Of a stretch of 64,000 nt of DNA, positions 43,597-60,812 are shown piece after piece (within the stretch, counting starts at the first letter, position 1; every line of letters starts with the position of its first letter). The DNA comes from a virus (Duplodnaviria > Caudoviricetes): the IMG/VR virus record IMGVR_UViG_2937884906_000001, positions 15,842 to 79,841 of that record. One strand, written 5' to 3'. Under the pieces are notes generated by a model that was not told where the DNA came from, did no database searches, and was given only the letters and a program-made list of their open reading frames with translations. Position numbers and translations under genes: made by a program.

Positions 43597-43721
43597 TCGC
43601 TGAATGCGGGTCTGCAACGACCTAAACTTGTGACCCGTCCACCGCATGAGCGTGGACCGAGCCGCTCCTTCGAGAATGGAGCACCTCAAGGCCCTCGCCA
43701 CCAGCGAGGGCCTTTTTCTTT
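43597..43721 (+). ncRNA. Candidate ~125-nt sRNA or attenuator leader
   Basis: Extended -10 TGcCATAAT (43582-43590), three hairpins, terminator AAGGCCCTCGC-CACCA-GCGAGGGCCTTTTTCTTT. Confidence 0.5.
43688..43721 (+). terminator. Intrinsic terminator just upstream of the kinase genes
   Basis: 11-bp perfect stem plus T-run. Confidence 0.88.
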
Positions 43722-43738
43722 GCCCACGGAGAGCGACC

Positions 43739-44233
43739 ATGAGCAGGACCACCATCACCACGGCATCTGATCCCAACACCAAATACCACGACGTCTGTAG
43801 CCAGCTCGAATTCAGCGGTTGGGCCAAAATCAGCTGCGGAGAATATGCGTCGATCTGGGCTCACCCCGATTGCCCCGACTCCGTCTTGAAGGTCGGCCAC
43901 GACCTCAGCGACGGCTGGCTGGACTACGCCAAGTCCTGCACCAAGACCCGCTCGCCCCACGCGCCCCGTATCCACGCGATCGAGCTCTACGAGAACTTCT
44001 TCTACGCCGAGATCGAGCGCCTCGCGCCTCTCTCACCCGATCGCTACTACGAGGAAAGCCTCAGCCGGCATCCTTATCCCGAGGACGTTCCGACCCACTC
44101 GCTGGCATGCTTCCTGCGCCGTACGGAGCGCGTCCGCCGCAAGTTCACGGACCATCTCGCCGACTACCATGAGAACAACTTCATGGTCCGGCCCTCCACC
44201 AACGAAATCGTCTGCACGGACCCATGGTGCTAA
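43739..44233 (+). CDS. T7 gp0.7-like protein kinase 1
   Basis: GEYASIWAHP..VLKVG, DYHENN, TDP align to T7 kinase GHFSAAYSHP..VIKVG, DMHSGN, TDP. Confidence 0.75.
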   Translation: MSRTTITTASDPNTKYHDVCSQLEFSGWAKISCGEYASIWAHPDCPDSVLKVGHDLSDGWLDYAKSCTKTRSPHAPRIHAIELYENFFYAEIERLAPLSPDRYYEESLSRHPYPEDVPTHSLACFLRRTERVRRKFTDHLADYHENNFMVRPSTNEIVCTDPWC

Positions 44234-44234
44234 C

Positions 44235-44777
44235 ATGAGAGCCCAGATCAATCACGCCCGCCGCAACGCCTGCTTCAGCGAAGCCGCACTGCGCCAAAAG
44301 GGATACCGTCAGATCGGCCGCGGAGCCTTCTCCAAGGCGTTCGTCCATCCCGACGCCCCCGAAGTCGTCATCAAGGTCGGCAAGCTCTACAGCAAGCGCT
44401 GCGGTCTCACCGATGGCTTCCCGCACTTCGCCCAGCAACTGCTTGAGGGCGAGATCCATTCCAAGTTCTTCCCCAAGGTCTACGGGCTCGTGATCGACCC
44501 CGTCAAACAGCTCTTCTGGTGCATCATGAAGCGCTACCGGAAGGTGCGGGGCGCCAAGAAAACGGCCGAGCAGATCAGCACCACACACAAGGCCATCACC
44601 GGCTCCATCAGCGGCACCAAGCCGGTCGGCCGCTTCCGCAAGGCGATGGAACAGCTGATCGACCATCGGTTCATCTCGGACATTCACGCTGGCAACGTCC
44701 TCTGGAACGGCGCCACTCCCATCGTCATCGACCCAATCTGCATCCGGCCGCGTTACCAAACGGAGTTCTACGCATGA
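44235..44777 (+). CDS. T7 gp0.7-like protein kinase 2
   Basis: IGRGAFSKAFVHP..VVIKVG, DIHAGN, IDP. Confidence 0.82.
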   Translation: MRAQINHARRNACFSEAALRQKGYRQIGRGAFSKAFVHPDAPEVVIKVGKLYSKRCGLTDGFPHFAQQLLEGEIHSKFFPKVYGLVIDPVKQLFWCIMKRYRKVRGAKKTAEQISTTHKAITGSISGTKPVGRFRKAMEQLIDHRFISDIHAGNVLWNGATPIVIDPICIRPRYQTEFYA

Positions 44778-46588: not shown

Positions 46589-46918
46589 GTGACCACCGAA
46601 TGGAACCCCGGTCAGCAGACCGATGCCCAAGCAGAGGGCTGGGACATCTTCGAAGCGAGCGGCTCCCAGCTCAATGAGAACGGCGACCGCCCCTTCCAGC
46701 TGCAGGCCTGTGACCAAGCCCAGATATTCACCGGCTTCCTCTGCGACCTGAAGGCCTGGACCCACGTTTACACCAAGGCGATGACCGGCTCGCTGCTCCA
46801 CCAACAGGCACTGAACTTCCTCAAGGAACACAGCGCGCCGGAGTTCGAGGCCATCATCAGCGAGAACAGCCCTGACGGGCGCGAACTGAACGAGGAGTTC
46901 CAATGGCCGATGCTCTGA
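46589..46918 (+). CDS. Hypothetical phage protein
   Basis: AEGWDIF..QLQACD motif; AGGAG SD. Confidence 0.6.
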   Translation: MTTEWNPGQQTDAQAEGWDIFEASGSQLNENGDRPFQLQACDQAQIFTGFLCDLKAWTHVYTKAMTGSLLHQQALNFLKEHSAPEFEAIISENSPDGRELNEEFQWPML

Positions 46919-47229
46919 AATGCCTCTGGCAGATCCTCGTGCCGTGCAACTACAACAACGGCAAGCCCGTCCGCACCCGCCACCACCGTGAGTGGGACAA
47001 GCGCATCAGGGCGATCACCGGCGGCCTCACGATCCTGTCCCCGGGCAAGGGCCAGTGGGTCGATCCCGCCACCGACACGCTCTACCAGGACCGCGTGATC
47101 CCGGTGCAGCTCATCGCGACCGCCGAAGAAATGGAGCGGATCGCCGACATCACCAACCAACACTACCGCCAGCTCGCCGTCATGTATTTCAAGATGAGCG
47201 AGACGGCGATCATCAGGGAGGCAGCATGA
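46903..47229 (+). CDS. Hypothetical protein
   Basis: GGLTILSPGKGQWV..RVIPV; P-II-like fold possible. Confidence 0.6.
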   Translation: MADALKCLWQILVPCNYNNGKPVRTRHHREWDKRIRAITGGLTILSPGKGQWVDPATDTLYQDRVIPVQLIATAEEMERIADITNQHYRQLAVMYFKMSETAIIREAA

Positions 47230-48797
47230 ACGCCTTGTGCTTCCAGGTCCACGGCGACCACATAACGGAAATCTCCCGAACCCGCGTGATCGAGGGCCGC
47301 TTCGATCACGGCTACCGCATCCTCTATGAGGGCCTGCACGGGATCAGCGCGGACCAGGTGCTCTCAATCCTGCGAGGTGACAGCAAGCTCGAAGGCATCA
47401 ACGATCTTGACCTGATCGAGGACAACGACACTGAGTGGAAGGCCAAGCTCGAATACCACTTCGCCGGTGTCTGGGTCACGTCGGCCGGCCGGCATCTGCG
47501 CCCCTACGCCATTGTCACGTCGTGGGGACCTGACGACATGAAGCACGCCGCTCGGATCACCCCCGACAGCGACAGCGTGAAGACATCCAGTCTGATGCAG
47601 CCGATCGGCCAGGAAATGTCCGGGCGCAACCTGTATTACGCCGACGACCCCGACCGCGACGTGGTGAAGAGCCTGCGGTTCAAATCGAATGACCCGGACA
47701 TCGCGACCGCAAAGGACGGCACGGTGTCGATCCTCTTTAAGGAGATCAGAGGGTTCCCGATGACTCTCATGTCGGCACACCACGACCCGCAGAAGGCGCT
47801 GGATGCCTTCATCAACGCCGACCGCAATCTGGAGCGGCGCGGCTACTGCGACCTGTATCCGCGTGAATATTTCAAGGTGCGGTACGAATGCGAGAAGGTC
47901 ACCGACCCGGCGCCCGACGCCCAGACCCACATGACGATCAACGAGAACAGCCAGACCGACTTCAACACGATCGGCCGGTTCCGCAACAAAGTGATCGACG
48001 CCAAGCAGCGCGGCATGGAGCTGGAGGAATACGAGCACTACCAGAGCATCATGCTGAACAGGGACAGTCCCTTCCAGCAGCGGCTCGATGCACTCGATAA
48101 CGTCATGAAGCTCCAGAAGACGCTTGATCGAAGCATTCCCGACTGGCGGGAGGCGATCATCGAGCAGGCCGGACTCAGCTGGATCGAAATGGAGTTTAAT
48201 GGAAAGACGATCCGCTTTCCGAGAGCGCCGTTCGAGAACTGGTGCCTATGGCGCACGGACGGCGCCCACCTGGCCCCGCCCTGGCAGATCGTGTCGCCCC
48301 AAGGCGTCAAGATGATGGGTGATGATCCATACCACACCGACTTCCTGATTGGCGCCGGCCTCGAGCCGGATGCCATGATGCGGGACCGCATGTTCAACGA
48401 CGCTGTCTTCAAGCTCCGCGGCGAGGTCCAGCAGGAGAAGATGGGCTTCGAATGTGCGGTGCTCAGCGGCAAGGGCTCGGCCTGGGGCACGGTGGTCCAT
48501 CCGAAGGTGGGCGACTCCCTACCGGACGATGCGATCGTCGTGCTGAAGAGCGCATCGGCCAAATATCTGGACCTCGCTCTCCAGGCCAAGGGCGTGATCG
48601 TGGAGCGTGGTGGTGAAATGGCACACCTGATCACCGTTGCCCGGGAAAAGGACGCGATCATCGTCCGCGTTCCCGACGCTCTCAAGATCTACCCCGCCGA
48701 CGCTTCAGTCACGATCGACGCCTCCGAAGGCAAGGTCACTCTCCACGAGGGCGACATGAAGTCGATCTGGGAGTTCAGCCGTCGCCAGGCAGAATGA
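47226..48797 (+). CDS. Protein with C-terminal PEP-utilising-enzyme swivelling phosphohistidine domain
   Basis: VIVERGGEMAHLITVARE..IIV and VTIDASEGKV match the mobile-domain consensus GG.t.H..IvARE. Confidence 0.75.
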   Translation: MNALCFQVHGDHITEISRTRVIEGRFDHGYRILYEGLHGISADQVLSILRGDSKLEGINDLDLIEDNDTEWKAKLEYHFAGVWVTSAGRHLRPYAIVTSWGPDDMKHAARITPDSDSVKTSSLMQPIGQEMSGRNLYYADDPDRDVVKSLRFKSNDPDIATAKDGTVSILFKEIRGFPMTLMSAHHDPQKALDAFINADRNLERRGYCDLYPREYFKVRYECEKVTDPAPDAQTHMTINENSQTDFNTIGRFRNKVIDAKQRGMELEEYEHYQSIMLNRDSPFQQRLDALDNVMKLQKTLDRSIPDWREAIIEQAGLSWIEMEFNGKTIRFPRAPFENWCLWRTDGAHLAPPWQIVSPQGVKMMGDDPYHTDFLIGAGLEPDAMMRDRMFNDAVFKLRGEVQQEKMGFECAVLSGKGSAWGTVVHPKVGDSLPDDAIVVLKSASAKYLDLALQAKGVIVERGGEMAHLITVAREKDAIIVRVPDALKIYPADASVTIDASEGKVTLHEGDMKSIWEFSRRQAE

Positions 48798-49953: not shown

Positions 49954-50163
49954 ATGACATGGGTTCCCTGCCAGCGCTGCAAGCTACTCACCCAGATCGA
50001 CCAGCTCGACAGCAAGCCGAAGATGACGCCCCTACTGCGGGTCATCAATGCGGCCCGAGGCCAGATCAAGATGCTGGCCTATGCAGCGGACCACGGGCAC
50101 GATTTCACCGTGCTCGAATGCAGGACCTGCTACGGCCCGGGCTGGTCGTCCAACACGGCCTGA
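49954..50163 (+). CDS. Small Cys-containing hypothetical protein
   Basis: CQRC...CRTC possible zinc finger. Confidence 0.5.
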   Translation: MTWVPCQRCKLLTQIDQLDSKPKMTPLLRVINAARGQIKMLAYAADHGHDFTVLECRTCYGPGWSSNTA

Positions 50164-51002
50164 ACCGTCGCGTGGCGCAGCTTCGGCTCGCCTCGCAACG
50201 TTCGCACCTTTGCCTTTACCCTGGACGCAAGCCACTCGACCTCGGGCTCGACCGCCGCCTTTGGCACCCCCACTGGCGGTCTCCCGCTACGAACTCGTTC
50301 CATGAGGCGCTCGCGCATCTGCTTTGTGACCGCGATGGTGGCGCGACCGACATATTTGCCCTCGCGTGCCATGATCCCGACCGTCTGCTTGCCGGGTTCC
50401 CGCTTGAGGCCGAGCAGCTCGAATTCGCCGACCTCCCAGCACTTCGTCTTGACCCAGATGTCGGACGGGCCGCTGCGATAAGGGCTGTTCCGGCGCTTCG
50501 AGACGATGCCCTCAAGGTCCATCTTCTCGGCTGCGGCGTAAAACTCAGCGCCGCCGCCCTCGACGTGCTGGCTGTACTGAATGATGCCCTCGGCCGGCTT
50601 GACCAGATCCCACAGGATCGCCTTGCGCTCAATCACTGGCCGCTTGCGAAGGTCCTCACCGTTCAGGTGCAGGATGTCAAAGGCCACGAAGGCGAGCAGC
50701 TCGGCATTCCAGGCCATACGTGAGTGCATCTGGCGGAAGTTCGGCCGCCCATCAGGCTCCGGCGCGATCATCTCGCCGTCTAGGATGAAGGCCTTGGCCG
50801 GCAACTTCTCGGCCGCGGCGACGATCGGCCAATAGCGCTTCGACCAGTCGTGCCCGTTCTTGGTGAAGGCCCGGGCGCCTGCCCAGTCAAGGATCAGCTG
50901 GGTGCGAAACCCGTCATATTTGATCTCGTGGATCCAGTCGTCGCTGACCGGCGGCTCGAGCACCAACTCTGGTTCCAATGGCTTGATGAACTTCAGACGC
51001 AT
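50130..51002 (-). CDS. ATP-dependent DNA ligase (LigD-type ligase domain only)
   Basis: EIKYDGFR, LDGE, AFDIL, EGIVSKR, WVKTK. Confidence 0.88.
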   Translation of the reverse strand: MRLKFIKPLEPELVLEPPVSDDWIHEIKYDGFRTQLILDWAGARAFTKNGHDWSKRYWPIVAAAEKLPAKAFILDGEMIAPEPDGRPNFRQMHSRMAWNAELLAFVAFDILHLNGEDLRKRPVIERKAILWDLVKPAEGIIQYSQHVEGGGAEFYAAAEKMDLEGIVSKRRNSPYRSGPSDIWVKTKCWEVGEFELLGLKREPGKQTVGIMAREGKYVGRATIAVTKQMRERLMERVRSGRPPVGVPKAAVEPEVEWLASRVKAKVRTLRGEPKLRHATVQAVLDDQPGP

Positions 51003-51079
51003 ACCCCACCCACCCCGCGATAAGTCACGAGGTCCAATTCTGTTCCGGAACAATTTAGCCGCTTTGAATTTAAAAGATA

Positions 51080-51262
51080 ATGACGAAGCTCTCCGACCTC
51101 GGCAAACCAAAACCAGGCCATCGGCATGGTGGCGACCCGGTGCGTGAAGAGGACAACTTCTACACCTGCAAAATCTGCGGGCAGAAGGTCGATATGCGCG
51201 ATCTGCGGCAGGTGTTCTGGCACGAAGAGCCAGACCATGAACCTTTAGAATACGACTCCTAA
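51080..51262 (+). CDS. Small zinc-binding-like protein
   Basis: FYTCKICGQKVDMRDLRQVFWH. Confidence 0.6.
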   Translation: MTKLSDLGKPKPGHRHGGDPVREEDNFYTCKICGQKVDMRDLRQVFWHEEPDHEPLEYDS

Positions 51263-54194: not shown

Positions 54195-55592
54195 ATGATC
54201 ACTGGCAAGACGCTGATCGACTGGGGCATCGACCCCAAAGGTAGAGGCAAGTGGTTCGGCGAAGCGATCCGCAACGCCAACATCCTCCATAGCCTCGGCC
54301 GGTCGGGGATGGAGATCCTCGCCGAGATCCGCAAGAGCGAACCCCAACTACCCCCCGAGATCCCACTCCGCACCAACTCACTGCCGTTCAACGTTTTCCT
54401 CGAGCCGGAGGACGAGATCGAGCACACCAACCTCAACCTGGTCGTCGAGGCCATGGACAAGCTGATGCGAGTGCCGACCGTCGAGAAGGCCGTCGTCATG
54501 CCCGACGCCTGCCCTGCCGGCATCATCCCGGTCGGCGGCGTGGTGGCCACCATGAATGCCATCCATCCCGGTTTCCACTCGGCCGACGTCTGCTGCTCGA
54601 TGGCGATCACCGTCTTCAAGCGCATGGAGGATCTGAAGAAGATCCTGGACGTTGCCCAGGAGGTCACTCATTTTGGCCCGGGTGGCCGTAGGGCGCTTCA
54701 CACGTCCATGGGTGCTTCCATTGGTCTGGTCGATCTTATCGACCGCATGGATGGTAACCGCTTCACGCAAGACCGCCAGTCAAAACACGGCGACATCGCC
54801 GAGACCAATCTCGGCACCCAGGGCGACGGGAACCACTTTCTGTTCGTCGGCGCGCTGCGCTCGACCGGTCAGCCCGCCATCGTGACCCATCACGGCTCCC
54901 GCGGACTCGGTGCGCTCGTCTACAAGCGAGGCTTGGCCGCGGCCAAGAAGCACACCGCGATCGTGTCGCCCAGGACCGACCCACAGGCCGCTTGGATCGA
55001 CGCCGACAGCGAGGCCGGCCAGGATTACTGGAAGGCGCTCCAGCTGGTGCGCGAGTGGACAAAGCTGAACCACTTCGTCCTCCACGACCGCATCCAGCAA
55101 CGCATTGGCAACTCCGTGGTCGATCGGTTCTGGAACGAGCATAATTTCGTGTTCCGGCGCGACGACGGCCTCTACTACCACGCCAAGGGTGCCACCCCGT
55201 CATTCGCCGGCTTCTCGGCTGACGACGACGGCCGGACCCTCATTCCTCTCAACATGGCGGAGCCGATTTTGGTCACGCGGCACGCCGACAAAGTCGAGGC
55301 GCTTGGCTTCTCACCACATGGCGCCGGCCGGAACATGAGCCGGACTGCCTACCTCCGCGACGTGATTGGAGACCGAGACGGTGCCGCTATCATGACGATG
55401 CTTCGCCGGAAGGTCGATGCCCGTTTCTATCTCGGCATCCCCGACCTGTCCGAACTGCCCGAGGCATACAAGAACGCCGAACAGGTTCAGCAGCAGATCA
55501 ACAAGCACGGCTTGGCGAAGGTGGTCGACTTCGTCGATCCCTACGGCTGCATCATGGCCGGCGAAATGCACTGGCAAAGGAAAACCAAATGA
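54195..55592 (+). CDS. rtcB: RtcB-family RNA ligase
   Basis: MPDAC, ADVCC, LGTQGDGNHF, THHGSRG, HNF, HAKGAT, PHGAGR, PEAYK. Confidence 0.92.
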   Translation: MITGKTLIDWGIDPKGRGKWFGEAIRNANILHSLGRSGMEILAEIRKSEPQLPPEIPLRTNSLPFNVFLEPEDEIEHTNLNLVVEAMDKLMRVPTVEKAVVMPDACPAGIIPVGGVVATMNAIHPGFHSADVCCSMAITVFKRMEDLKKILDVAQEVTHFGPGGRRALHTSMGASIGLVDLIDRMDGNRFTQDRQSKHGDIAETNLGTQGDGNHFLFVGALRSTGQPAIVTHHGSRGLGALVYKRGLAAAKKHTAIVSPRTDPQAAWIDADSEAGQDYWKALQLVREWTKLNHFVLHDRIQQRIGNSVVDRFWNEHNFVFRRDDGLYYHAKGATPSFAGFSADDDGRTLIPLNMAEPILVTRHADKVEALGFSPHGAGRNMSRTAYLRDVIGDRDGAAIMTMLRRKVDARFYLGIPDLSELPEAYKNAEQVQQQINKHGLAKVVDFVDPYGCIMAGEMHWQRKTK

Positions 55593-58805: not shown

Positions 58806-60812
58806 ATGCACAAGGACAAGACCATGAAACTGCTCAACACCGCCCGCGCCGAAGACTTCCACGCCGCCGGCGTCACCGAAGCCCGCACCTTTGGCTTCGA
58901 GATGAACGCGATCGCCTTCCACGCCGTGATCGACGGCATCTATTCGGACAAGATCCTGGCGCCGGTGCGCGAATATGCGACCAACGCCTACGACGCCCAC
59001 ATCGCCGCGGGAAAGGCTGACCAGCCGTTCCTCCTCATGGCGCCCTCGACCCTCAGCCCGTACTTCATGGTCCGTGACTTCGGCCCGGGCATGACCCACG
59101 AAGAGGTGACGCAGCGCGCCACCACGCTGTTTGGCTCGGACAAGCGCGACAGCAACACCCAGGTCGGAATGCTCGGCCTCGGCATGAAGTCGGCCTTCGC
59201 CTACACCAAGCAGTACACCATCACCTGCTTCGACGGCACGACGAAGCGCGAGTATGTCTGCTTCCTGGACGGCAGCGGCATGCCGACCGTGAGCCTGGCG
59301 GCCGAGGATGAGAGCCAGGAGCGCACCGGCGTCATGATCAAGTTCCCGGTGCAGCAGCTCGACATCGAGCGGTTCCGCACCGCGATAGAGAAGGTGATGA
59401 TCGGCTTCGACCCGATGCCGACTGTGCTCAATGATCAGTGGACGCCGTCCGGCGTCACCACGCTGATGGAGGGCAGCAACTATCGCATCGTCAAGTCCAA
59501 CCATGTATCGAGCCCCCGCATCCGTCAGGGGTGTGTGCTCTACCCCCTCGACATAACCCAGTTGGTCCATGTCGACGACGACAACGAGCTCCGGATCCCG
59601 ATCATCATCGACGTGCCGATCGGCACGGCCAGTGTGTCGACCTCGCGAGAGCAACTCGGCTACGACGAGCCCACCAAGGACAACCTGCGCCTCATCTGGC
59701 AGCAGGTGCGCCAGGACATCCGCAACGAGCTCCAGGCCACCCTCGACGCGCCGGACACTTTCCTGGACGCCTGCATCGTCTACGGCGAGCTGGCCACTCG
59801 TCTCGGCAAGACCATGCTCAAGCAGCCGAAGTGGCGTGGCAAGGCCGAACTCCGCACCAGCTTCTCCTATCTCGGCGCTGGGCGAGCTGCCGTGCTGCTC
59901 AATTGGGACGACCTCCGGTTCTCGCCGCCACGTCAGCCTACTGGTCGTTCTCGCTACTACCAGACGGCGCCGTCGCTCACCCCGCAAGAACTGAAGGGAT
60001 ACACGGTCGTTTGGGAGGCGCCGGACTGCCGCTTCTCCAAGGACCGGATGCGGATGTTCCGCGACCAGAACGAGGAAGCCGACATCCTGTGGGTGAAGGC
60101 CGACACGTTGGCCAAGGTCACCGAGTATTACGGTGTCGAGGCGGTCGTCGACCTCCGCACCATCGAGCGCCTCAAGCTCGTCCGCACCAGCCGCCCCCGG
60201 GTCGGTCTGAGCAAGCAGGACATCCGCACCTTCGATCGCTACCGGAGCATCATCCAGGAGCCGGAGAAGGCCGTCTATGTCTACTCCGAGGGCGCCAATT
60301 ATGAGGTCTTCGGCCAGATCCTCGATATGGAACAGGTGCAGGACCGCTACATCAGGAGGCTCCGGAACATCGACGCCATCAAGCATGACCAGTCTGTCAT
60401 CGTCCTGATGAAGAACCAGCGCAACCTGCCGAAGGACCGCCCTGGCTGGATCCACCTCGACCAGCTCCTCAAGGACACCGTCGCCGGCTTCAACGCCAAG
60501 GCTCACGCCGTCAAGAGCGACGTGACCAGCTTCCGAAACGACCGCCTGGTCAACATTCTGGGCCGCAAGCTGGATCAGCTGCCGAAGCGACTGCGAGACC
60601 TTCTCCAGAAGGCCATCAACATGTCCTCGAACACCTATGAGGACCTGTTGCTCTCCCAGTTGTGGGTCGAGGTGACCGGCAAGAGCCTGCCGAGCGTCAC
60701 GACAGACTTCCACGCGAGGTTCGCCAAGCTGGTGGCCGGCTACCCGCTGCTCAACGTGCTCGCCAACAATGACGAGCACCTGACCCACTATCTCAAACTC
60801 ATCGCGAGGTAA
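58806..60812 (+). CDS. rIIA: rIIA-like protein with GHKL/Hsp90-type ATPase domain
   Basis: IYSDKILAPVREYATNAYD, VRDFGPGM, SDKRDSNTQVGMLGLGMKSAFAY. Confidence 0.88.
   Translation: MHKDKTMKLLNTARAEDFHAAGVTEARTFGFEMNAIAFHAVIDGIYSDKILAPVREYATNAYDAHIAAGKADQPFLLMAPSTLSPYFMVRDFGPGMTHEEVTQRATTLFGSDKRDSNTQVGMLGLGMKSAFAYTKQYTITCFDGTTKREYVCFLDGSGMPTVSLAAEDESQERTGVMIKFPVQQLDIERFRTAIEKVMIGFDPMPTVLNDQWTPSGVTTLMEGSNYRIVKSNHVSSPRIRQGCVLYPLDITQLVHVDDDNELRIPIIIDVPIGTASVSTSREQLGYDEPTKDNLRLIWQQVRQDIRNELQATLDAPDTFLDACIVYGELATRLGKTMLKQPKWRGKAELRTSFSYLGAGRAAVLLNWDDLRFSPPRQPTGRSRYYQTAPSLTPQELKGYTVVWEAPDCRFSKDRMRMFRDQNEEADILWVKADTLAKVTEYYGVEAVVDLRTIERLKLVRTSRPRVGLSKQDIRTFDRYRSIIQEPEKAVYVYSEGANYEVFGQILDMEQVQDRYIRRLRNIDAIKHDQSVIVLMKNQRNLPKDRPGWIHLDQLLKDTVAGFNAKAHAVKSDVTSFRNDRLVNILGRKLDQLPKRLRDLLQKAINMSSNTYEDLLLSQLWVEVTGKSLPSVTTDFHARFAKLVAGYPLLNVLANNDEHLTHYLKLIAR

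What the first reader, a model, noticed from the sequence alone, without database searches (positions are those of the whole stretch)
47226..48797. Orphan swivelling phosphohistidine domain fused to an unknown ~420-aa region
Seen: the C-terminal PEP-utiliser mobile domain retains its His (GGEMAH). I see no ATP-grasp or PEP-binding barrel in the rest of the protein. Established: this domain carries phosphate in PTS enzyme I, PEP synthase, PPDK and rifampin phosphotransferase. Inference: a phage phosphate sink or donor that taps host PTS/PTS-Ntr, or phosphorylates a nucleotide or defence effector through the novel N-terminal domain.
Basis: partly seen in the sequence, partly recalled or inferred. 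Interest (0 to 1): 0.7.

Follow-up and report, generated by a model that had tools for sequence, protein, structure and literature searches.

The report
Phage phosphohistidine enzyme with new domains
This prophage gene encodes a member of a large, unstudied family that joins the phosphate-carrying histidine domain of PEP synthase-type enzymes to two domains with no known relatives, so it is probably a new kind of phosphate-transfer enzyme whose donor and target are unknown.

Summary

The upstream 405 aa give no match to an ATP-grasp or a PEP-binding barrel. They split into three parts:
- An N-terminal domain (1-235), modelled at pLDDT 94.5, with no match in the PDB.
- A variable helical linker.
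- A ~100-aa "mid" domain, always next to the swivel. D366, H370 and D372 (in DDPYHTD) are invariant; K362 and R343 are nearly so.

The mid-domain profile finds 641 clusters among 1.84 billion representative proteins. The members seen are in phages (phiCbK-like, Seuss, Bajun, Vibrio phages, jumbo contigs) and only 2 of 185,579 species genomes. A second architecture, mid+swivel plus a different C-terminal domain, lies in bacterial toxin/immunity and defence islands.

Neighbours are not conserved, and five phage genomes checked encode no ATP-grasp partner. The swivel is closest to the PEP synthase/RPH type, not enzyme I. The PTS-tapping idea is neither supported nor excluded.

First-stage notes from three other windows of this scan describe proteins that look similar; I did not check them.

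My verdict is an uncharacterised, mainly phage-borne phosphohistidine phosphotransferase family whose function needs biochemistry.

The parts
47216..47221 (+). Ribosome-binding site GGGAGG, 4 nt upstream of the ATG
   Evidence: Read directly from the sequence
47226..48797 (+). Coding sequence, 523 aa plus stop; member of phrog_11532 (function unknown)
   Evidence: phrog_11532 at E 2.7e-104; 64 homologues
47226..47930 (+). N-terminal domain, aa 1-235: a helical part (1-85) and a beta-rich part (86-235), found only in this family. Conserved R18, R92, P93, D104, R134, Y138, P178
47931..48140 (+). Variable helical linker, aa 236-305; differs in length between homologues and is partly deleted in some
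   Evidence: Alignment A1; predicted helices 240-261, 266-277 and 282-315
48141..48440 (+). Mid domain, aa 306-405: beta-hairpin, a conserved loop and helices; next to the swivel domain in nearly every relative collected
   Evidence: A3 and A4; 641 representative clusters at E <= 1e-3; no Pfam or PDB sequence match; hhalign against the RPH pre-swivel region gives probability 0.16%
48321..48341 (+). DDPYHTD motif (D366-D372). D366, H370 and D372 are invariant in the 89-sequence alignment; K362 and R343 lie upstream
   Evidence: Translation; invariant columns in 89 diverse sequences; frequencies in 160 sequences
48441..48755 (+). PEP-utiliser swivel (phosphohistidine) domain, aa 406-510
48609..48626 (+). 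GGEMAH; the His467 codon is 48624-48626, the predicted phospho-carrier histidine
   Evidence: Translation; aligned with the catalytic His of PEP synthase and RPH; G462 invariant in both alignments, H467 invariant in A4 and 99% in 160 sequences

Best explanation
The gene encodes a phosphotransfer enzyme of an uncharacterised, mainly phage-borne family. His467 on the C-terminal swivel domain carries a phosphoryl group. It delivers that group to, or collects it from, a catalytic pocket on the adjacent family-specific mid domain. That pocket would be formed by R343, K362, D366, D367, H370 and D372, with the acidic residues holding Mg2+ and the basic ones holding phosphate. The Arg-rich N-terminal domain provides the second site: either the binding site for the target or a new kind of donor site. 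The gene lies in the phage's accessory block, close to T7 gp0.7-like kinases, a DNA ligase, RtcB and RIIA-like genes, and I infer that this block is expressed early. The enzyme is therefore most likely used to phosphorylate a host, or host-defence, molecule during take-over.

Shown:
- The domain anatomy.
- The homology and fold of the swivel domain, and the conserved His.
- The obligate pairing of mid and swivel domains.
- The distribution of the family.

Inferred:
- That His467 is phosphorylated.
- That the mid-domain motif is the partner active site.
- The role of the N-terminal domain, and the biological purpose.
For: The swivel domain is genuine and the His is conserved.
- hhalign to 30 RPH-superfamily swivel domains gives 99.1% probability, E 9e-19.
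- Across 89 diverse relatives the only invariant columns are D366, H370, D372, G462 and H467. In 160 sequences K362 is kept in 99% and R343 in 91%. This is the pattern of two cooperating catalytic centres.

The mid and swivel domains go together.
- In 188 of 197 family proteins collected, the mid domain sits next to a swivel domain. The other nine are short or lack the C-terminal end, so they are probably fragments.
- PF00391 is the only Pfam family found, in 82 of 89 members.

The accessory domain is interchangeable.
- It is the N-terminal domain in type A and an unrelated C-terminal extension in type B (hhalign probability 0.3%).
- Some ~220-250-aa proteins show no accessory domain at all.
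- This fits a constant chemical core with a variable specificity module.

Precedent for one substrate site served by the swivel His.
- In RPH the second phosphotransfer site lies on the RIF-binding domain, against which the swivel domain docks (PMC4844700).
- HpeH, which has no ATP-grasp domain, on its own moves phosphate between two substrates (PMC12167813).

Context. In the window the gene lies in a co-directional block with two gp0.7-like kinases, a ligase, RtcB and an RIIA-like gene. In phiCbK, Seuss and Bajun it lies among small unnamed genes.
Against: - No phosphoryl donor site can be named. No ATP-grasp (PF01326) is found in the protein or anywhere in five phage genomes at E <= 1, and there is no PEP-binding barrel.
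- The mid domain was never searched as a fold by itself.
- I could not read model coordinates, so I do not know whether His467 faces the DDPYHTD loop. pTM 0.58 for the full model means the domain arrangement is uncertain.
- No conserved neighbour genes point to a substrate.
- Swivel-fold domains without phosphotransfer exist, for example the C-terminal domain of Geobacillus and Staphylococcus pyruvate kinase.
Confidence: 0.45

Rival explanations
1. It is the acceptor half of a split dikinase. Like HpeH or the alpha subunit of phenylphosphate synthase, it has a swivel domain and a substrate site but no ATP-grasp domain. It would be loaded in trans by an ATP-grasp protein, here necessarily a host one (PEP synthase, PPDK or an HpeI-like protein).
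For: - The swivel is closest in sequence to the ATP-grasp-loaded PEP synthase/RPH type.
- Two-component dikinases are real (PMC12167813). ATP-grasp-only ORFs lie next to proteins with a C-terminal swivel in Pseudomonadota genomes (L039, L040, L043).
- PPDK_N is found in 13 of the 14 control genomes, Caulobacter among them.
Against: - No ATP-grasp gene is found in the own provirus, Seuss, Karma, Bajun or VP-1, and none recurs near the gene in 25 loci.
- The region before the swivel shows no relationship to the RPH/HpeH substrate domain (hhalign probability 0.16%; no RPH hit for the N-terminal domain).
- I know of no example of a foreign swivel domain being loaded by a host PEP synthase.
Confidence: 0.15
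2. The swivel His exchanges phosphate with the host PTS or PTS-Ntr (enzyme I/EI-Ntr, HPr/NPr), acting as a phosphate sink or tap that rewires host nitrogen, carbon or (p)ppGpp signalling during infection.
For: - Every host that could be checked has HPr and enzyme I: the Caulobacter control, the Phreatobacter MAG G003 and the Planctomycetota MAG G004. From general knowledge, Vibrio has a full PTS.
- A conserved acidic and His pocket beside the swivel could hydrolyse or pass on the phosphate.
Against: - The sequence affinities are with PEP synthase, RPH and pyruvate kinase, not enzyme I.
- Pfam finds no HPr-binding EIN helical subdomain (PF05524) at E <= 1.
- A PTS is present in about half of the control genomes, so its presence in three or four hosts is weak evidence.
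- Type B relatives sit in toxin/immunity and defence islands, which a PTS role does not explain.
Confidence: 0.12
3. The swivel domain is not a phospho-carrier here. It would serve as a binding or regulatory module, as proposed for the extra C-terminal domain of some pyruvate kinases, or as a decoy that binds and blocks a host PEP-utilising enzyme or its regulator.
For: - No donor site can be recognised in the protein.
Against: - The His and the GG motif are invariant or nearly so across 89-160 very diverged sequences, whose mean column identity is 15%.
- An equally invariant D/H/D cluster sits next door.
- That degree of conservation suggests catalysis rather than binding alone.
Confidence: 0.1

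Closest known systems
Rifampin phosphotransferase (RPH) and the small-molecule dikinases (HpeHI, phenylphosphate synthase, PigC/HapC)
   Same: - A non-barrel domain sits in front of the swivel.
- Two-component forms without an ATP-grasp domain exist (PMC4844700, PMC12167813).
   Different: - There is no ATP-grasp domain in the protein or in the phage genomes checked.
- The 405 aa before the swivel show no detectable relationship to the RIF-binding domain.
- The catalytic block is D-x3-H-x-D with K and R, not the R-E-x-x-K of RPH.
- It is phage-borne.
PEP synthase and pyruvate phosphate dikinase
   Same: They have the swivel domain. PEP synthase 9dae is the best sequence hit (E 3e-10).
   Different: The phage protein gives no match to the N-terminal ATP-grasp (PF01326) or the C-terminal PEP/pyruvate TIM barrel (PF02896). 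Its swivel domain is C-terminal rather than central.
PTS enzyme I / EI-Ntr
   Different: Pfam finds no HPr-binding helical subdomain and no PEP-binding domain. No enzyme I sequence model matches at E <= 1.
phrog_11532; hypothetical proteins of phiCbK-like phages (D865_gp179), Seuss gp102 and Bajun BAJUN_01120; 'PEP-utilizing enzyme' of Vibrio phages VP-1 and 1.232.O
   Same: The same family and architecture: full-length matches at 30-37% identity, and hhalign E 4e-44 to the Vibrio phage 1.232.O protein. The N-terminal fold is shared with the VP-1 protein.
   Different: None in kind. All are unannotated or named only after the swivel domain, and none has been studied.

Membership tests
PEP-utilising enzyme mobile (swivel phosphohistidine) domain, PF00391 | Match to the family HMM above the gathering score | tested here: met
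   35.9 bits against a 23.1 cut-off, E 5.5e-9, residues 433-502; 82 of 89 relatives also match
PEP-utilising enzyme mobile (swivel phosphohistidine) domain, PF00391 | Three-layer beta/beta/alpha swivel fold | tested here: met
   [not shown]
PEP-utilising enzyme mobile (swivel phosphohistidine) domain, PF00391 | Catalytic His after a GG loop, at the start of a helix | tested here: met
   GGEMAH at residues 462-467 pairs with GGMTSH and GGLMTH in the PDB alignments. A helix is predicted at 466-474. G462 and H467 are invariant
PEP-utilising enzyme mobile (swivel phosphohistidine) domain, PF00391 | The His is actually phosphorylated | not testable with these tools
   Needs 32P labelling or mass spectrometry
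PEP synthase / PPDK dikinases | Sequence match to the ATP-grasp nucleotide-binding domain (PPDK_N, PF01326) | tested here: not met
   PF00391 is the only Pfam hit at E <= 1. PF01326 is not found in the provirus or four related phage genomes at E <= 1
PEP synthase / PPDK dikinases | ATP-grasp fold in the N-terminal region | tested here: inconclusive
   [not shown]
PEP synthase / PPDK dikinases | C-terminal PEP/pyruvate-binding TIM barrel (PF02896) | tested here: not met
   No Pfam hit at E <= 1. The protein ends 13 residues after the swivel domain
PTS enzyme I | HPr-binding helical subdomain (PEP-utilisers_N, PF05524) and PEP-binding domain | tested here: not met
   No Pfam hit at E <= 1. No enzyme I model is among the NCBIfam hits at E <= 1
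Rifampin phosphotransferase superfamily (small-molecule dikinases) | Substrate-binding domain before the swivel that is homologous to the RIF-binding domain (R-E-x-x-K block) | tested here: not met
   hhalign of the mid-domain profile (160 sequences) against the 175 aa preceding the swivel in 30 RPH-superfamily proteins gives probability 0.16%, E 0.37, while the swivel domains align at 99.1%. The only hint was an ESM-atlas lead to Rph_4th at score 0.88
Two-component dikinases (HpeHI, phenylphosphate synthase) | A separate ATP-grasp subunit encoded alongside | tested here: not met
   PF01326 is not found in five phage genomes, and there is no recurrent neighbour in 25 loci
phrog_11532 | Match to the family profile | tested here: met
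   E 2.7e-104, 350.8 bits

The most novel reading that the evidence does not exclude
The mid+swivel core is a previously unknown, self-sufficient phosphotransfer module. Its DDPYHTD pocket would be a new kind of phosphoryl donor/acceptor site that replaces both the ATP-grasp domain and the PEP barrel. Both sides of the phage-bacterium conflict would then use this module. Phages would fuse it to the Arg-rich N-terminal domain to phosphorylate, and so disarm or hijack, a host or defence molecule. Bacteria would fuse it to a different domain in defence and toxin-immunity islands.
Probability: 0.25. Interest if true: 0.8.

Novelty: new variant of a known kind. Interest (0 to 1): 0.6.

Why it matters
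Enzymes with a swivelling phosphohistidine are known only with an ATP-grasp domain, a PEP-binding barrel, or both. This family has at least 641 sequence clusters. It is carried by well-known model phages (phiCbK and relatives, Vibrio Ackermannviridae) and by jumbo-phage contigs. It keeps the catalytic histidine but replaces every other known part with domains that have no detectable relatives.

Finding its donor and acceptor would add a new branch to this enzyme superfamily. It would probably also reveal a phage take-over or counter-defence reaction based on phosphorylation. The relatives in bacterial defence and toxin-immunity islands suggest that the same chemistry is used on both sides of the conflict.

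The question can be tested directly, because phiCbK and Caulobacter form a tractable genetic system.

Tried and rejected
**The N-terminal region as a standard dikinase domain**
- Pfam at E <= 1 and NCBIfam found nothing upstream of the swivel.
- A family profile against PDB sequences found only swivel hits.

**The mid domain as the 'fourth domain' of RPH**
- The lead came from the ESM atlas at score 0.88. PF27448 is not in the local Pfam copy.
- I collected 30 RPH-superfamily C-terminal halves.
- hhalign gave probability 0.16%; a first try with 4 sequences gave 0.2%. I rejected the lead.

**Other negative results**
- The type B C-terminal extension is not a permuted N-terminal domain (hhalign 0.3%).
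- The mid-domain profile against PDB sequences gave nothing.
- PADLOC gave no match for type A or type B proteins.
- Conserved gene neighbourhood: tblastn of all window ORFs against 21 loci and clustering of all ORFs in 25 loci showed no partner. There were only sporadic Thg1-like and RNR small-subunit genes.
- A phage-encoded ATP-grasp partner was not found.
- Fused forms longer than 916 aa were not found, which is weak evidence.
- The ESM atlas gave nothing usable for the N-terminal domain.
- The promoter and terminator scan gave no more sites than chance.
- Six literature searches found no study of this family. The jumbo-phage comparative review does not mention it.

- Reading model coordinates or PAE to measure the distance from His467 to the DDPYHTD loop.

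Full report
**The gene**

Window 47226-48797 (+) is an open frame of 523 codons. GGGAGG lies 4 nt before the ATG, and the ATG overlaps the stop of the upstream ORF 46903-47229 as ATGA. The window belongs to a 79.8-kb provirus record that CheckV rates 97% complete. The phage carries these genes:
- structural and replication genes: a lambda-J-like tail protein, tape measure, major head, portal, large terminase and primase;
- nucleic-acid metabolism genes: ribonucleotide reductase and an SbcC-like protein;
- a co-directional accessory block holding two T7 gp0.7-like kinases, an ATP-dependent DNA ligase (on the opposite strand), RtcB and an RIIA-like protein.

The target gene lies inside this accessory block.

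**The observation**

PF00391 matches residues 433-502 at E 5.5e-9, above the gathering score. A 48-sequence family profile hits PEP synthase (9dae, E 3e-10), rifampin phosphotransferase (5fbs, E 5e-9) and the C-terminal domain of Geobacillus pyruvate kinase (2e28, E 5e-8). In these alignments His467 falls on the catalytic His. GGEMAH is encoded at 48609-48626.

**The rest of the protein**

Pfam at E <= 1 and NCBIfam find nothing upstream of residue 419. Alignments of homologues and domain HMMs divide the upstream 405 residues into three parts.

2. *Helical linker, residues 236-305.* It varies in length and is partly deleted in some homologues.
3. *Mid domain, residues 306-405.* It has a beta-hairpin, a conserved loop and helices. 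Its signature is VPxAPFxxW...W..V...G.K...DDPYHTDW..GAG. DDPYHTD is encoded at 48321-48341.

Across 89 diverse relatives, with mean column identity 15%, the only invariant columns in the whole protein are D366, H370, D372, G462 and H467. In 160 sequences K362 is kept in 99% and R343 in 91%.

**The family**

The mid-domain profile finds 641 clusters at E <= 1e-3, and 499 at E <= 1e-10, among 1.84 billion representative proteins. Most are 430-520 aa long with the mid domain at about residues 250-350. PF00391 is the only Pfam family on them, in 82 of 89.

Named carriers are the phiCbK-like Caulobacter phages, Caulobacter phage Seuss, Brevundimonas phage Bajun and several Vibrio phages, including Ackermannviridae VP-1/VAP7. 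Every one is annotated as hypothetical or simply as 'PEP-utilizing enzyme'. Twenty-one IMG/VR loci carry the gene, many of them on contigs of 200-578 kb.

Only 2 of 185,579 species genomes carry the family. One further member lies in a Bradyrhizobium chromosome, in a region that looks like a prophage.

There are two architectures:
- *Type A*, as here: N-terminal domain, linker, mid domain, swivel domain.
- *Type B*: mid and swivel domains at the N-terminus, followed by an unrelated ~230-aa extension (hhalign to the N-terminal domain 0.3%).

Some ~220-250-aa proteins appear to be the bare core, but they may be fragments.

Type B genes lie in bacterial conflict regions:
- one lies among SUKH immunity genes and a Colicin-DNase/WHH toxin;
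- one lies next to a GmrSD_N gene and a P4 cII-like gene;
- one lies near a NADAR gene.

**Partners**

No neighbour is conserved. The window's ORFs do not recur beside the gene in 21 loci. Clustering all ORFs from 25 loci gives only sporadic Thg1-like and RNR small-subunit genes.

No PPDK_N ATP-grasp domain is encoded anywhere in the provirus, Seuss, Karma, Bajun or VP-1. No fused form longer than 916 aa was found, although that is weak evidence.

**Relation to known enzymes**

The swivel domain is clearly of the PEP synthase/RPH type, with hhalign at 99.1% to 30 RPH-superfamily proteins. The ESM atlas suggested that the mid domain might be the RPH 'fourth domain', at score 0.88, which is only a lead. 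I tested this. In RPH the catalytic R666/E667/K670 lie in the RIF-binding domain ahead of the swivel (PMC4844700). The profile of the 175 residues preceding the swivel in 30 RPH-superfamily proteins shows no relationship to the mid domain (probability 0.16%).

The family therefore shares only the swivel domain with RPH, HpeH (PMC12167813), PEP synthase, PPDK and enzyme I.

**Mechanism**

The pattern of conservation has three features:
- an invariant carrier His;
- an equally invariant Asp/His/Asp cluster with Lys and Arg in the domain fused directly to it;
- a replaceable third domain.

This is best read as a phosphohistidine enzyme whose constant chemistry takes place between His467 and the mid-domain pocket. 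The accessory domain would then supply specificity or a second site. HpeH alone can shuttle phosphate between two substrates at one site (PMC12167813), so a core without an ATP-grasp domain can still be catalytically meaningful.

Three things remain unknown: the donor, the acceptor, and whether His467 actually reaches the pocket. I could not read model coordinates, and pTM 0.58 for the full model means the domain arrangement is uncertain.

The rival explanations are:
- loading in trans by a host ATP-grasp enzyme;
- a non-catalytic binding role.

The hosts that could be checked do have HPr and enzyme I. However, the swivel's sequence affinities, and the lack of any Pfam match to the HPr-binding subdomain, do not favour the PTS idea.

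**Novelty**

No paper in the library deals with this family. PHROGs lists it as of unknown function.

First-stage notes from three other windows of this scan describe proteins that look similar (GGAVAHL and GGEMSHL motifs after unknown regions). No follow-up is shown for those notes, and I did not verify that they belong to the same family.

I class this as a new variant of a known kind: a known phospho-carrier domain in a wholly new enzyme context.

Noticed in passing
window 43646-44233 and 44169-44777 (+): Two adjacent, overlapping ORFs both match the T7 gp0.7-like protein kinase family (phrog_15752, E 1e-14 and 8e-13). They appear to be tandem paralogues of a host take-over kinase, about 2.5 kb upstream of the target gene.
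   Followed up: partly
window 50130-51110 (-), 54195-55592 (+), 58806-60812 (+): The same accessory block holds an ATP-dependent DNA ligase on the opposite strand (PF01068, E 9e-27), an RtcB-type RNA ligase (phrog_1075, E 2e-95) and an RIIA-like protein (phrog_612, E 2e-94). Together they suggest a counter-defence and repair gene set.
   Followed up: partly
L068 6001-7395 (P0054); L072 7001-8515 (P0060); L074 7001-8494 (P0063): Type B relatives (mid+swivel core plus an unrelated C-terminal domain) lie in bacterial conflict regions. One lies among SUKH immunity genes, DUF1963, DUF3841 and a Colicin-DNase/WHH toxin. One lies next to GmrSD_N and a P4 cII-like gene. One lies near a NADAR gene and a 1951-aa helicase-like protein. 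PADLOC does not know them.
   Followed up: partly
L039, L040, L043 (Pseudomonadota genomes): ATP-grasp-only ORFs (349-391 aa, matching NF004877 positions 4-315) lie directly beside ORFs that end in a swivel domain. These look like HpeHI-type two-component dikinases.
   Followed up: no
window 46903-47229 (+): The 108-aa ORF whose stop overlaps the target's start codon (phrog_3543, function unknown) has a homologue about 2.5 kb upstream of the family member in one other locus (L006, E 5e-28). It is absent from the other 20 loci.
   Followed up: partly
L007 1258-2082; also L012, L019, L021: A Thg1-like tRNA 3'-5' polymerase gene (PF04446, E 1e-26) lies 5-7 kb upstream of the family member in four jumbo-phage contigs, while the window has RtcB 5.4 kb downstream. 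This is a loose recurrence of tRNA-repair genes near the family and may be coincidental.
   Followed up: no
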